Of a stretch of 39,537 nt of DNA, positions 35,410-38,300 are shown one piece after another. Source of the DNA: an uncultured Lachnospiraceae bacterium. Its GTDB lineage: Bacteria; Bacillota; Clostridia; Christensenellales; UBA1242. The first letter of the stretch is position 1. The number at the start of each line of letters is the position of its first letter. The DNA is taken from assembly GCA_964520955.1 (NCBI GenBank), contig CAZFPH010000001.1, positions 1-39,537 on the forward strand, given 5' to 3'. Below the pieces are notes generated by a model that was given only the letters and a program-made list of their open reading frames with translations, had not been told where the DNA came from and made no database searches. The position numbers were made by a program, and so were the translations under genes.

Positions 35410-35889
35410 TTACTTTATCACAAGTTTTCCGCCGACAAGTTCGTTTAAAACATCAATCGGGCTAATCTTGTGTTCTTTTTCTTTAATTTTAAAGCTTAAG
35501 CCACTCTTCCCAAAAAACTTATCCATCTCAGCCTTGTAGCCCTCGTTTAAAATCAATTCATAAACTTCGTCTTGTTCTGAACTAATTTCTGCCACACCAC
35601 CAGAAATTTCAATCTTTTGAATATTTCTACAAATCATAAGCAGTGGCATAAGCCTGTTTTGCCTAAAGTATCTAAGCATTTCACCAAGAAGCTTAAAGCC
35701 TTGGTCAAGTCCAGAGTTTGGAGCGACCGCAGACTTGACGCTATCAAAGTCAATGACCTCTGCCTGAGGTTCTGCCTTTTGCGTAGCTTGCTCTTGAGGC
35801 TTTTGAACGCCAATTATTTGCTTTTTTTTATTAATCTCGGCTTTTAGAGCACCTAAGCTTTTATCTGGGAAAGTTTTTAACAGTTTCCT
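35410..35889 (-). CDS. dnaX: dnaX C-terminal (tau-specific) segment, open only in the +1 frame relative to 35861..37000
   Basis: This frame is open from 35889 to the stop at 35410 (RKLLKTFPDKSLGALKAEINKKKQIIGVQKPQEQ...LLGEMLRYFRQNRL...VGGKLVIK). It has no ATG/GTG/TTG before the Met at 35679. The content resembles the Firmicutes tau linker plus C-terminal domain. Confidence 0.6.
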   Translation of the reverse strand, partial: RKLLKTFPDKSLGALKAEINKKKQIIGVQKPQEQATQKAEPQAEVIDFDSVKSAVAPNSGLDQGFKLLGEMLRYFRQNRLMPLLMICRNIQKIEISGGVAEISSEQDEVYELILNEGYKAEMDKFFGKSGLSFKIKEKEHKISPIDVLNELVGGKLVIK

Positions 35890-37000
35890 CTAACTTTTCA
35901 ACTCGTTCAAGAAGCGAGCTTTCGCTGATAATCTTTATGATAGCGGTTTCAAGGACAATCCTTGGCTGAACACTGAACCTGAGTTCTTGTTCAATTCCAC
36001 TGAGCACCTCGATAGCCTTAAGCACGCTAGAGTAAGATTTTTCTGTTGCCTGAACTTTCATTTTATCAAACACGTCATCTTTGACAACCACAATCTGCCT
36101 TGAGTCAGCTTTGAGTGTGTAAATAAGGAGCAAATCCCTAAAGTAAGACACCATATCACTTGCAAACACAAGCGGACTTTTTCCAGCAGAAAGAACTTTG
36201 TCAAGTTCCACTAACGCCTCGCCAACATTTTTTTCCAAAATCTTGTCAGTCATATTAATCAGAACCTCTCGCTCTGAAACACCGAGTACTGAAATAACTT
36301 TCGACGCTGTGAGCTCATTACCTGCAAAAGAAACGCACCTATCGGCAATTGAAAGCGTGTCACGAACACTACCCTCACCAGCCCTTGCAATAATGTTTAT
36401 TGCCTGTTCATCAAAGGTGACATTTTCTGACTTTAAAATGTTTTTAAGCAAGTTTGATAAGTCCTCAAGCGAAACGAGCTTGTAGTCAAACCTCAAGCAC
36501 CTTGAAAGAATGGTTGCAGGGAGTTTGTGAACTTCGGTTGTCGCCAAAATAAACACTGTGTGTGCAGGTGGCTCTTCCAAAGTTTTGAGCAGTGCATTAA
36601 ATGCAGAGGTTGAAAGCATATGCACCTCGTCTATAATATAAACTTTATACTTTCCAACAACTGGTGGATACTTTACCTTTTCTCTCAAATCTCTAATTTC
36701 ATCAACACCGTTGTTTGAAGCTGCGTCGATTTCCAAAACGTCGATATTTGTGCCATCGAGCGATTTGCAAACCTCGCGCTCACCACAAGGTGAACCATTT
36801 TGGGGATTTGTGCAATTAATGGCTTTTGCAAAGATTTTTGCTGTGCTGGTTTTTCCTGTACCACGGCTACCCGTGAAAAGATATGCGTGTGAAATTTTGT
36901 CAAGTTTGATTTGGTTGACTAAAGTTTTCACGATATGGTCCTGACCGATAACCTCGTCAAAAGTGCGTGGTCTATACTTTCTATAAAGTGCTAAATACAT
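35861..37000 (-). CDS. dnaX: DNA polymerase III subunit gamma/tau, zero-frame product (379 aa; clamp-loader domains I-III)
   Basis: YRPRTFDEVIGQ, Walker A GSRGTGKTSTAK, IIDEVHMLS and SRC (LSRCLRF) motifs. The stop UAA is at 35861-35863. Confidence 0.9.
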   Translation of the reverse strand: MYLALYRKYRPRTFDEVIGQDHIVKTLVNQIKLDKISHAYLFTGSRGTGKTSTAKIFAKAINCTNPQNGSPCGEREVCKSLDGTNIDVLEIDAASNNGVDEIRDLREKVKYPPVVGKYKVYIIDEVHMLSTSAFNALLKTLEEPPAHTVFILATTEVHKLPATILSRCLRFDYKLVSLEDLSNLLKNILKSENVTFDEQAINIIARAGEGSVRDTLSIADRCVSFAGNELTASKVISVLGVSEREVLINMTDKILEKNVGEALVELDKVLSAGKSPLVFASDMVSYFRDLLLIYTLKADSRQIVVVKDDVFDKMKVQATEKSYSSVLKAIEVLSGIEQELRFSVQPRIVLETAIIKIISESSLLERVEKLEETVKNFPR

Positions 37001-37011
37001 AAACCTTTCTC

Positions 37012-37566
37012 CTATTTTAGTTTAGATTTTATTCTTTGAATAGTGTTGTCAATTGACTTAACATCACGGCTAAGATTTTTTGCAATCTCGCTCTGCTTTT
37101 CGCCAGCAAGATATCTTGAAAGAACTTGCTTTTCAAACTCACTAAGTTCCTTTTCACAAATCTTTTTTCGTTCTGTTATTTTTTCTTTATCAATAAACAT
37201 TTCAAGCGGGTCGTTTGAAGTGTTTCTGTCAGAAAATATATCAAGAATTGTTTGTTCTCCGCCCTCGCCATCAGAAAATAGCAGTGAAACCGACTCGTTT
37301 AGTGCTTTATTCTTTTGAGCGTTGGCTGACTTGATTGCGTCAATAATCTGCCTTTTGATACACATTTTTGCAAATGCTTCAAACCTTGGTTCAAATAAAG
37401 TTTCGCCGTTATAGTTTTTGCAGGCCTCAAGTAGACCAATAACGCCCTCTTCATACAAATCCTCGCTTGTGCCACCCACAATAAAGAATTTTCTGCAAAG
37501 CCCATTGATGTATGGCGAAAACTTTTGCACAATTTTTACAACATCACTTGTGTTAACATTATTCAT
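37012..37566 (-). CDS. sigH: RNA polymerase sigma factor, SigH-like (sigma-70 family)
   Basis: 184 aa. DLYEEGVIGLLEACKNY...FEAFAKMCIKRQIIDAIKSANAQKNKALN resembles SigH region 2. It has a C-terminal region 4 HTH and sits in the conserved position after rlmB. Confidence 0.75.
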   Translation of the reverse strand: MNNVNTSDVVKIVQKFSPYINGLCRKFFIVGGTSEDLYEEGVIGLLEACKNYNGETLFEPRFEAFAKMCIKRQIIDAIKSANAQKNKALNESVSLLFSDGEGGEQTILDIFSDRNTSNDPLEMFIDKEKITERKKICEKELSEFEKQVLSRYLAGEKQSEIAKNLSRDVKSIDNTIQRIKSKLK

Positions 37567-37574
37567 TACGTATC

Positions 37575-38300
37575 CTACTTTAATCTTTGTCTTACTGCTT
37601 CATAAAGCACAATGCCTGCACTAACGCTGGCGTTTAGCGAGTTAACCTTTCCAAACATTGGAATTTGCACAACAGAGTCGCAAAGTTCCTTTGTGAGTCT
37701 TTTTACTCCTGTGCCTTCACCGCCAATAACGAGTGCAATGTCGCCCTTGAGGTTGGTTTTGTACATTTCCTCGCCGTCCATATCAGCAGCATAAACCCAA
37801 ACATTTTGCTTTTTTAGTTCTTCAATTGTTTGGTTTAGGTTTGATACCTTGATTATTGGCATATACGCTGTTGCTCCAGCAGATGTTCTAACAACCGTTT
37901 CGTTAACAGTTGCACTTCTGCGGTTTGGAATAATTACTCCACTAGCCCCTGCACACTCAGCAACCCTTACAACTGAACCAAGATTATGAGGGTCTAAAAC
38001 TTCGTCCAAAATAACAAACAATAAGTCCTTGCCCTTTTCTCTTTCACCAGCAATAACATCTCTAAGCTCAGCGTACTTAAAATCAGAAAAGATTGCAAGA
38101 ATGCCCTGATGATGACCAGTTTCAGAAAGTTTATCTATGGCACGCTTGTCGGCGTACTCAACTCTAATACCTTTGTCTTTTGCCTGTTTTGCAAGAGCTC
38201 TAATCTCTTGGTCGTTAGTTCCATCGACAACCATAATCTTTTCAATGGTTTTGTCGCTATTAAGTAGTTCTTTTACAGGATTTTTACCTTCAATTTTCAT
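37575..38300 (-). CDS. rlmB: TrmH/SpoU-family 23S rRNA (guanosine-2'-O)-methyltransferase RlmB (YacO-like)
   Basis: 241 aa; SpoU_sub_bind N-terminus, DPHNLG, GGEGTG and SLNASV motifs. Confidence 0.85.
   Translation of the reverse strand: MKIEGKNPVKELLNSDKTIEKIMVVDGTNDQEIRALAKQAKDKGIRVEYADKRAIDKLSETGHHQGILAIFSDFKYAELRDVIAGEREKGKDLLFVILDEVLDPHNLGSVVRVAECAGASGVIIPNRRSATVNETVVRTSAGATAYMPIIKVSNLNQTIEELKKQNVWVYAADMDGEEMYKTNLKGDIALVIGGEGTGVKRLTKELCDSVVQIPMFGKVNSLNASVSAGIVLYEAVRQRLK

What the first reader, a model, noticed from the sequence alone, without database searches (positions are those of the whole stretch)
35410..37000. dnaX is split between two reading frames: zero frame gives a gamma-like product and full-length tau would need a +1 shift
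Seen: the dnaX ORF from 37000 ends at UAA 35861-35863 after 379 codons (…VEKLEETVKNFPR*), just after clamp-loader domains I-III. The remaining about 150 codons resemble the tau linker and C-terminal domain (…KSLGALKAEINKKKQIIGVQKPQEQATQKAEPQAEVIDFDS…LLGEMLRYFRQNRL…GGKLVIK*). They are open only in the +1 frame, from 35889 to 35410, with no ATG/GTG/TTG before the Met at 35679. The frames overlap for just 29 nt: 5'-GAG GAA ACU GUU AAA AAC UUU CCC AGA UAA-3' (minus strand). This stretch contains UUU-C and CCC-A contexts, where a P-site tRNA could re-pair one base forward. These lie two to three codons before the zero-frame stop. An AGAGGA Shine-Dalgarno-like element lies at 35886-35891. Established: E. 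coli makes gamma from dnaX by -1 frameshifting and Thermus by transcriptional slippage, and in both cases the recoding event truncates tau. Inference: here the logic would be inverted, with a default short product and recoding needed for tau. Since dnaX is essential, this is either a programmed +1 event or a 1-nt homopolymer assembly error (A5 at 35874-35878, T3, C3).
Basis: partly seen in the sequence, partly recalled or inferred. Interest (0 to 1): 0.6.

Follow-up and report, generated by a model that had tools for sequence, protein, structure and literature searches.

The report
Conserved +1 frameshift site in dnaX
In this uncultured gut Clostridia genus, the essential replication gene dnaX is truly split between two reading frames at an invariant UUU-CCC-AG motif. 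The full-length tau subunit most likely needs a programmed +1 ribosomal frameshift, which I did not find described for this gene.

Summary

- **Layout.** dnaX (minus strand) stops after 379 codons, just after clamp-loader domains I-III. The remaining 150 codons are open only in the +1 frame.
- **Conservation.** All 19 species of the genus in which dnaX is assembled have this split. So do four independent metagenome assemblies of near-identical strains. The 120 best public protein clusters are all 379-381 aa.
- **Motif.** TTTCCCAG at the junction is the longest invariant nucleotide run in the whole gene.
- **Rare codon.** CCC makes up 2% of proline codons. A near-complete congener has only one tRNA-Pro (UGG) and one tRNA-Phe (GAA).
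- **C-terminal part.** It is under purifying selection, has no conserved start codon, and matches the C-terminus of uninterrupted DnaX from sister genera.

Best reading, at about 0.8: a programmed +1 ribosomal frameshift on UUU_CCC_A makes tau, and standard decoding makes a gamma-like product.

A two-ORF dnaX that needs recoding for tau is already known (Antonov 2013), but only as -1 shifts on poly-A runs. This +1 signal appears new. Four other genera of the family carry a second, prfB-like +1 cassette (GGUG-N3-CCC-stop).

Earlier notes of this scan report +1 dnaX splits with different motifs in other phyla.

The parts
35861..37000 (-). dnaX frame-0 ORF. It gives a 379-aa gamma-like product (clamp-loader domains I-III) ending at TAA 35861-35863.
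   Evidence: ORF list and translation. Pfam DNA_pol3_delta2, DNAX_ATPase_lid and DNA_pol3_gamma3 cover residues 19-371. NCBIfam PRK05563 and TIGR02397 match.
35861..35872 (-). Proposed +1 shift cassette TTT CCC AGA TAA. TTTCCCAG is invariant. The zero-frame stop lies directly after AGN in 18 of 19 species.
   Evidence: Junction alignments. It is the longest invariant nucleotide run in the gene. The intersected shift window falls here. CCC is 2.1% of Pro codons. G001 has a single tRNA-Pro(UGG) and a single tRNA-Phe(GAA).
35854..35860 (-). Conserved 3' context after the stop (N N G C Y Y A). C at +15 is invariant although it is a third codon position in the +1 frame. Its role is unexplained.
   Evidence: Per-column conservation and the list of invariant third positions. 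No consistent downstream hairpin was found.
35875..35875 (-). Invariant A, first base of the codon 5' of TTT (ARN/AUU in all 19 species).
35710..35871 (-). +1-frame junction and linker: TTC CCA GAT ... coding F-P-D-K-S-L... It is variable, K/E-rich and stop-free in every species, with no conserved start codon.
   Evidence: Linker dN/dS is 0.2-1.1. The junction peptide FPAK in several species matches LPAK at the same position in continuous DnaX of two sister genera.
35413..35709 (-). +1-frame conserved C-terminal domain of tau (LLGELLxxLR...GGKLxIK). The stop is at 35410-35412.
   Evidence: Alignment A1. hhalign against C-termini of continuous DnaX gives prob 94.7%, E 6e-8. Direct BLASTP to the C-termini of sister-genus DnaX gives E down to 1e-18. 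dN/dS is 0.12-0.44. AF2 pLDDT is 87.7.
35886..35891 (-). It is probably only the Glu-Glu codons of the conserved LEE.
   Evidence: An SD core is present upstream in only 8 of 19 species, 14-18 nt before TTT.

Best explanation
dnaX of this genus is expressed through a programmed +1 ribosomal frameshift.

Ribosomes that decode normally read ...AAC UUU CCC AGA UAA and release a 379-aa gamma-like clamp-loader subunit. A fraction slip one base forward on UUU_CCC_A and continue as UUC CCA GAU AAA... This yields the 529-aa tau, which carries the linker and the C-terminal domain.

The site suits forward slippage in three ways:
- The only tRNA-Phe (anticodon GAA) pairs better with UUC than with UUU.
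- The only tRNA-Pro (anticodon UGG) pairs better with CCA than with CCC.
- CCC is a nearly unused, presumably slowly decoded codon.

Three routes are possible. Peptidyl-tRNA-Phe may slip while the A site waits for CCC. tRNA-Pro may slip from CCC to CCA. Or both tRNAs may move together during translocation. All three give the same protein (...K-N-F-P-D-K...).

What is shown: the two-frame layout, its conservation, selection on both parts, the rarity of CCC, and the tRNA set. What is inferred: the frameshift itself, which codon slips, and the efficiency.
For: - **Real and inherited.** All 19 congeneric species with dnaX assembled have the N-part in frame 0 and the C-part in +1. Independent assemblies of near-identical strains show the same. 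The 120 best protein clusters are all 379-381 aa.
- **Position.** The +1 frame opens 2-62 nt before TTT. The zero frame closes 9 nt after it (27 nt in G014). The only codons common to all shift windows are TTT CCC AGN.
- **Nucleotide-level selection.** TTTCCC(A)G is the longest invariant run in about 1.6 kb. Only 15 of 588 third codon positions are invariant, and they include those of TTT and CCC.
- **Decoding.** CCC occurs at 0.55 per 1000 codons and is 2.1% of Pro codons, against 61% for CCA. G001 (96% complete) has 39 tRNAs with one Pro(UGG) and one Phe(GAA), all with normal 7-nt anticodon loops.
- **The C-part is the tau C-terminus and is used.**
  - The fused protein aligns end to end (1-529) with continuous DnaX of sister genera.
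  - The C-part alone hits their C-termini at E 1e-18.
  - hhalign gives 94.7%.
  - C-domain dN/dS is 0.12-0.44.
- **No independent start.** No start codon is conserved in the +1 ORF. Six species have none within 120-190 nt.
- **No other copy.** No second dnaX exists in these genomes.
- **Precedent.**
  - UUU_Ynn is +1-prone in bacteria.
  - Listeria phages use CCC +1 sites where CCC is rare (PMC5009743).
  - UUC_CCC_UGA gives 15% +1 shifting in E. coli, with the Phe contributing (PMC3082878).
  - tRNA-Pro(UGG) is intrinsically +1-prone on CCC (PMC4519876).
- **Parallel case.** Four other genera of the family have GGUG-N3-CCC-(UGA/UAG/AGU UGA) at the same place in dnaX, with the C-domain in +1. 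This is a prfB-like cassette.
Against: - There is no direct evidence of a trans-frame protein.
- The genus lacks the classical +1 stimulators. It has no conserved SD element and no consistent 3' structure. The stop codon is one codon away from the slippery codons, not in the A site.
- The heptamer is probably not strongly shifty on its own. In-frame TTT CCC A occurs in two other long ORFs of this genome and is not depleted.
- EF-P and TrmD, which suppress +1 slips at proline codons, are present.
- The conserved AG, the stop and the 3' GCYYA context are not explained by the model.
Confidence: 0.8

Rival explanations
1. Split gene. The 379-aa clamp-loader subunit and the C-terminal domain are made as two separate proteins. 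The second would start by termination-reinitiation or at a non-canonical start codon after the UAA.
For: Gene callers annotate a separate 117-139 aa ORF downstream in related contigs. Some species have TTG or GTG codons early in the +1 ORF.
Against: - No start codon is conserved in position. Six species have none for 120-190 nt, and in this window the first one lies inside the conserved LLGE motif.
- The linker stays stop-free from the motif onward in all 19 species.
- Separate expression would not explain an invariant rare-codon motif TTTCCCAG.
- A tau C-terminus that is not tethered to the clamp loader would lose its known coupling role (established knowledge of tau).
Confidence: 0.07
2. RNA-level correction. 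RNA polymerase slippage or editing removes one base at T3C3, or adds two, so that standard translation of a subset of mRNAs gives tau.
For: Thermus and many two-ORF dnaX genes use transcriptional realignment (PMC3711429, PMC5009743). Many genera of this very family have A9-A10 runs at the junction.
Against: Known bacterial slippage needs runs of about 8-9 identical bases or more, or T5C5-type tracts (PMC5009743, PMC1088944). Here the tract is only T3C3. The A5 run upstream is not conserved. No RNA data were available.
Confidence: 0.05
3. Assembly or sequencing error (one extra base in a short homopolymer). The real gene would be a continuous 529-codon ORF.
For: The genome is a fragmented MAG with 205 contigs. 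Raw reads could not be inspected.
Against: The identical frame split is seen in 19 species at 72-84% protein identity, in four independent ENA assemblies, and in contigs up to 577 kb. None of the 120 best protein clusters is continuous.
Confidence: 0.01
4. Quadruplet decoding. A dedicated tRNA with an 8-nt anticodon loop reads CCCA or UUUC as one codon.
For: The result would be the same protein. Frameshift-suppressor tRNA-Pro variants of this kind are known from genetics (my knowledge).
Against: All 39 tRNAs of the 96%-complete congener G001 have standard loops, with a single tRNA-Pro(UGG). Two other genes carry in-frame TTT CCC A and stay in frame.
Confidence: 0.02
5. Decaying gene. The lineage lives with a gamma-only DnaX, and the downstream frame is a non-functional remnant.
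For: None beyond the stop codon itself.
Against: The C-domain is under purifying selection (dN/dS 0.12-0.44). It stays open in every species despite synonymous saturation. No second dnaX or other tau source exists.
Confidence: 0.02

Closest known systems
Two-ORF dnaX in which recoding is required for tau (Antonov et al. 2013, NAR 41:6514, PMC3711429; noted in Atkins et al. 2016, PMC5009743)
   Same: The gamma-like product comes from standard decoding, with its stop right after the shift site. The tau C-terminus lies in another frame. The position is the same, at the end of domain III.
   Different: All 17 published genes are -1 at the DNA level, and 12 of them carry poly-A tracts of 7-10 A, read as transcriptional realignment or -1 shifts. 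Here the shift is +1 on UUU_CCC_A with no homopolymer run. The published type is also common in this family.
E. coli pheL UUC_CCC_UGA incidental +1 frameshift (Gurvich et al., PMC3082878)
   Same: Phe-Pro(CCC) occupies the E and P sites, and tRNA-Pro slips +1. The Phe contributes, and 15% shifting occurs without an SD element or RNA structure.
   Different: In pheL a stop codon sits in the A site and the shift is not used. Here the A-site codon is AGN, the stop follows one codon later, the Phe codon is always UUU, and the event would be essential.
Listeria phage PSA/A118/A500 +1 frameshifts at CCC (CCC_UGA; ACA_CCC_UCC) as summarised in PMC5009743
   Same: The host is a low-GC Firmicute in which CCC is a rare Pro codon. 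The +1 slip of tRNA-Pro is used to add a C-terminal extension. [quoted passage not shown]
   Different: Those are phage structural genes. A 3' pseudoknot is reported for one of them (my recollection; the review cites those phage papers for +1 pseudoknot stimulators in bacteria). No 3' structure was found here.
prfB (release factor 2) programmed +1 frameshift: SD-N3-CUU_UGA_C
   Same: It is a chromosomal, conserved +1 shift needed for the full-length product of an essential gene. The sister-genus dnaX cassettes GGUG-N3-CCC_UGA copy its architecture.
   Different: The genus studied here has no SD element and no stop in the A site. No autoregulatory logic is evident.
E. coli dnaX -1 frameshift (A_AAA_AAG, SD, stem-loop) and Thermus dnaX A9 transcriptional slippage
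   Same: The same gene and the same boundary. Both give two products that share domains I-III.
   Different: The direction and logic are opposite: there, recoding truncates tau. None of their signals is present, and there is no Rfam match.

Membership tests
Programmed +1 ribosomal frameshift site | One protein is encoded by two overlapping ORFs in a 0/+1 relation, with homology to uninterrupted orthologues running across the junction. | tested here: met
   The fused protein aligns 1-529 with continuous DnaX of sister genera in one HSP. The C-part hits their C-termini at E 1e-18. hhalign gives 94.7%.
Programmed +1 ribosomal frameshift site | A conserved P-site codon whose tRNA can re-pair one base forward. 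| tested here: met
   UUU_C (tRNA-Phe GAA to UUC) and CCC_A (tRNA-Pro UGG to CCA) are invariant in 19 species. The tRNA set comes from G001.
Programmed +1 ribosomal frameshift site | A slow-to-decode zero-frame A-site codon (stop or rare sense codon). | tested here: inconclusive
   If UUU is in the P site, the A-site codon is CCC, which is 2.1% of Pro codons and has no cognate GGG tRNA. If CCC is in the P site, the A-site codon is AGN, which is common. The stop is one codon further on.
Programmed +1 ribosomal frameshift site | Stimulators: a 5' SD-like element about 3 nt upstream, or a 3' structure. | tested here: not met
   An SD core is present in 8 of 19 species and lies 14-18 nt upstream. 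No consistent hairpin was found. This feature is met in the other +1 genera (GGUG-N3-CCC).
Programmed +1 ribosomal frameshift site | A trans-frame protein is demonstrated. | not testable with these tools
Two-ORF dnaX needing recoding for tau (Antonov 2013) | The gamma-like ORF ends just after domain III and the tau C-terminus lies in another frame. | tested here: met
Two-ORF dnaX needing recoding for tau (Antonov 2013) | A -1 frame relation at a poly-A tract. | tested here: not met
   The frame relation is +1 in all 19 species. The junction is T3C3 and the A5 run is not conserved.
E. coli-type dnaX -1 PRF element (Rfam DnaX frameshifting element) | An A_AAA_AAG heptamer with an SD element and a 3' stem-loop at the gamma/tau boundary. 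| tested here: not met
   No Rfam match at E up to 10. An A_AAA_AAG lies 40 nt downstream in the tau frame of this window only and is not conserved.
DnaX (DNA polymerase III gamma/tau) | AAA+ clamp-loader domains I-III. | tested here: met
   NCBIfam PRK05563 scores 535 bits (cut-off 400) and TIGR02397 scores 451 bits. Pfam domains match.

The most novel reading that the evidence does not exclude
UUU_CCC_A is a self-sufficient 'tandem +1' slippery heptamer, the mirror image of the -1 X_XXY_YYZ motif. Both tRNAs would pair better one base forward, and the site would work with no SD element, no stop in the A site and no RNA structure. It would supply an essential replisome subunit and set the gamma:tau ratio.

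On this reading, dnaX in this family of roughly 1-Mb gut Clostridia is a hotspot that has recruited at least four different recoding signals at one boundary:
- A9-10 runs
- A_AAA_AAC
- GGUG-N3-CCC_UGA
- UUU_CCC_AGN_UAA

The +1 solution arose at least twice.
Probability: 0.35. Interest if true: 0.8.

Novelty: new variant of a known kind. Interest (0 to 1): 0.68.

Why it matters
Apart from prfB, few conserved chromosomal +1 frameshifts are known in bacteria. This would add one in an essential replication gene, using a signal type not catalogued in the papers I could search.

Annotation pipelines currently call these genes as a truncated dnaX plus a hypothetical protein. As a result, tau looks absent from a whole group of gut bacteria.

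The family offers a natural comparative series for asking why cells keep making both gamma and tau from one gene, and how easily one recoding signal replaces another. Within related genomes, dnaX is:
- continuous;
- -1 on poly-A;
- -1 on a heptamer;
- +1 with an SD element and CCC-stop;
- +1 on UUU_CCC_A.

The site is also a compact candidate cassette for studying how a rare codon and a single isoacceptor drive +1 slippage.

Tried and rejected
- **Exact-protein lookup of the window's own product.** Nothing on record. Close relatives were used instead.
- **Family searches of the C-part alone.** Pfam and NCBIfam gave no hit. The PDB profile search gave nothing.
- **Fold search.** The AF2 model of the C-domain was confident (pLDDT 87.7). 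Foldseek against PDB gave no significant match (best E 0.09). Only weak resemblance to DnaA domain I appeared, and E. coli tau chain 5fku_E ranked 27th. This is inconclusive. Homology was settled by sequence instead.
- **Downstream RNA stimulator.** RNAfold of 70 nt after the site in 19 species gave no shared hairpin, with z-scores mostly between -1.4 and +0.9; only two reached about -2.3 to -2.7. Rfam found nothing.
- **Genome-wide rare-codon skipping**, a lead from earlier scan notes. Two scans of G000 found dnaX as the only convincing 0/+1 split, and no other TTTCCCA split. Rejected for this genome.
- **Missing frame-maintenance factors.** efp and trmD are present in 5 of 5 genomes. Rejected.
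Not conserved.
- **Pattern scan of TTTCCCAGNTAR over 400 family genomes**. It gave roughly one chance hit per genome. None of the listed hits outside the genus lies at dnaX, but 237 hits were not listed.
- **Genome-contig scan**. Names such as Christensenellaceae, Ca. Coproplasma and Ca. Caccovivens suggest Christensenellales-like Clostridia.
Full report
**Observation.** On the minus strand, an ATG at 37000 opens a 379-codon ORF that ends ...VEKLEETVKNFPR at TAA 35861-35863.
- The +1 frame is open from 35889 to the TAA at 35410-35412.
- The two frames overlap for 29 nt, reading GAG GAA ACT GTT AAA AAC TTT CCC AGA TAA.
- The first ATG/GTG/TTG of the +1 frame is the ATG at 35679.
- The N-part is an unmistakable DnaX domain I-III module: NCBIfam PRK05563 535 bits, TIGR02397 451 bits, Pfam DNA_pol3_delta2, lid and gamma3.

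**Context.** The window is contig 1 of a fragmented MAG: 1.24 Mb, 205 contigs, 80% complete, 34% G+C. The gene order is rlmB-like, sigma factor, dnaX, ybaB, recR. Titles of distant relatives point to small-genome, Christensenellales-like gut Clostridia.

**Not an artefact.**
- A search of 40 relatives showed that every other species of the genus with dnaX assembled (19 of 19; N-part 72-84% identical) has an open frame of only 384-407 codons.
- tblastn places the N-part in frame 1 and the C-part in frame 2 in all of them.
- The +1 frame is open for 140-193 codons from 2-62 nt before the motif.
- With the fused protein as query, the best 120 public protein clusters (80-100% identical; ENA, Logan, NCBI, JGI; contigs up to 577 kb) are all 379-381 aa and cover 71% of the query. 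None is continuous.
- Four independent ENA assemblies of near-identical strains read AAC TTT CCC AGA TAA with the same +1 ORF.
This is assembly-level, not read-level, evidence, but it comes from many independent data sets.

**The junction.** TTT CCC AG is invariant in all 19 species. It is followed by N TA[A/G] in 18 of them. In G014 the zero-frame stop is six codons further on.
- Intersecting the windows in which a shift could occur leaves only [NNT] TTT CCC AGN.
- In a codon-threaded alignment of the whole gene, this is the longest invariant nucleotide run, longer than anything in the ATPase motifs.
- Only 15 of 588 third codon positions are invariant, and they include those of TTT and CCC.
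- Also conserved: A at -3, T9 A10 R11 (the stop), and G14 C15 Y16 Y17 A18.
- T9 and C15 are third positions in the +1 frame, so they are constrained at the nucleotide level or by the zero-frame stop.
It is an SD-like core in only 8 of 19 species, 14-18 nt upstream.
- No shared 3' hairpin exists, and there is no Rfam match.

**Decoding environment.**
- In 690 long ORFs of this genome, CCC is used 154 times (0.55 per 1000; 2.1% of Pro codons). CCA is used 4427 times. UUU is the major Phe codon.
- The 96%-complete congener G001 has 39 tRNA genes with one tRNA-Pro (UGG, G37) and one tRNA-Phe (GAA). All have standard 7-nt anticodon loops.
- On UUU_CCC_A, both tRNAs therefore pair better one base forward (UUC, CCA), and CCC must be read by U:C wobble.
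- efp and trmD are present. The site works, if it does, against normal frame maintenance.

**The downstream frame is tau's C-terminus and is in use.**
- Reading CCCA as one step gives a 529-aa protein.
- It aligns end to end, in a single BLASTP HSP, with the uninterrupted 490-573-aa DnaX of the nearest genera.
- The C-part alone matches their C-termini at E 1e-18 to 1e-9.
- A profile of the genus C-domain matches the C-termini of more distant continuous DnaX (hhalign 94.7%, E 6e-8).
- The domain carries a conserved LLGELLxxLR...GGKLxIK pattern and folds confidently (pLDDT 87.7). Foldseek found no significant PDB match.
- dN/dS is 0.12-0.44 for the C-domain, 0.2-1.1 for the linker and 0.06-0.15 for the N-part.
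- No start codon is conserved in the +1 ORF. In six species there is none for 120-190 nt.
- No second dnaX exists in these genomes.
- In several species the trans-frame junction reads F-P-A-K. Two sister genera with continuous genes have L-P-A-K at the same position (CTT CCA GCA AAA). This fits an origin by a single-base insertion in TTYCCA.

**Scope in the genome and the family.** Two genome-wide scans found no other gene of this MAG split this way. The signal is therefore gene-specific, not a lineage-wide decoding quirk.

Within the family (about 1-Mb genomes, at least 58 genera sampled), the genera nearest to this one have continuous dnaX. Many others have short ORFs:
- I sampled 32 such junctions outside the genus.
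- Of these, 26 have A6-A11 runs (mostly A9-A10, or the heptamer A_AAA_AAC) followed by a stop, with the C-domain in the -1 frame. This is the published type.
- Six sequences from four genera have the C-domain in +1, behind an invariant GGTG-NNN-CCC followed by TGA, TAG or AGT TGA. This architecture copies prfB (SD, 3-nt spacer, slippery codon, stop).

A tree of the N-parts places the 19 sequences of this genus as one clade (SH-aLRT 99) inside a clade of continuous genes (98). The GGTG-CCC group lies elsewhere. The +1 layout therefore arose at least twice (gene tree only, quick search).

**Mechanism.** The best-supported reading is a programmed +1 ribosomal frameshift on UUU_CCC_A.

Published work makes each half plausible:
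- UUU_Ynn is notably +1-prone in bacteria, and Listeria phages use CCC +1 sites where CCC is rare (PMC5009743).
- UUC_CCC_UGA gives 15% +1 shifting in E. coli without an SD element or structure, and the Phe contributes (PMC3082878).
- tRNA-Pro(UGG) pairs weakly with CCC and shifts during stalling or translocation (PMC4519876).

The invariance of UUU, never UUC, suggests that tRNA-Phe re-pairing matters. The invariance of the 2% codon CCC shows that the codon, not just proline, matters.

Which tRNA slips is not resolved, because all routes give the same protein.

Points against:
- There are no classical stimulators.
- The stop is not in the A site.
- In-frame TTT CCC A occurs in two other ORFs, so the extended context probably contributes in a way I cannot explain.

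**Comparison with the literature.** Antonov et al. (PMC3711429) described dnaX genes in which recoding is needed for tau. All 17 are -1 at the DNA level, and 12 of them have poly-A tracts. Atkins et al. (PMC5009743) repeat this. In four full-text searches I found no report of +1 frameshifting in dnaX or of a UUU_CCC_A signal.

Earlier notes of this scan record +1 dnaX splits with other motifs in Bacteroidales and a Myxococcota-like lineage, and CGG-skipping Clostridia. I did not test those. I did test the genome-wide idea here, and it does not apply.

**Verdict.** This is a new variant of a known kind. Confidence in ribosomal +1 frameshifting is about 0.8. It rests on comparative evidence only and awaits reads, a reporter assay or a junction peptide.

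Noticed in passing
L184-L188, L179 (G072, G042, G114, G067, G129, G088): Four other genera of the family carry a second kind of +1 dnaX junction: an invariant GGTG-NNN-CCC followed by TGA, TAG or AGT TGA, with the tau C-domain in +1. This prfB-like SD-spacer-slippery codon-stop cassette also seems undescribed for dnaX.
   Followed up: partly
L021, L022, L026, L050, L055, L156-L183: Most short-ORF dnaX genes of the family have A9-A10 runs, or the heptamer A_AAA_AAC, just before the stop, with the C-domain in -1. This is the published 'tau needs recoding' type. Continuous, -1 and +1 layouts are interleaved on the gene tree (7 changes at least).
   Followed up: partly
window 35822-35829 (minus strand): An A8 run forms an E. 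coli-like A_AAA_AAG heptamer in the tau (+1) frame, 40 nt after the junction. It is replaced by GTAAAAACTGAAAAG in a 98%-identical strain (L201) and is absent from other species. It is probably just lysine codons.
   Followed up: yes
G000 whole genome: CGG is even rarer than CCC: 27 uses in about 280,000 codons (0.1 per 1000). Only 11 tRNA genes are assembled in this MAG.
   Followed up: no
window 37012-37566 and 37575-38300 (minus strand): Directly upstream of dnaX lie a 184-aa sigma-70 family (region 2/4) factor and a SpoU/TrmH-type RNA methyltransferase. ybaB and recR follow dnaX. The same order is kept in related contigs (L199-L202).
   Followed up: no
L032 (G131) and L039 (G047), DnaX residues about 378-385: Continuous DnaX of two sister genera reads T-L-P-A-K (CTT CCW GCW AAA) at the position where this genus has the trans-frame F-P-A-K. 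This suggests the split arose by a one-base insertion in a TTYCCA string.
   Followed up: partly
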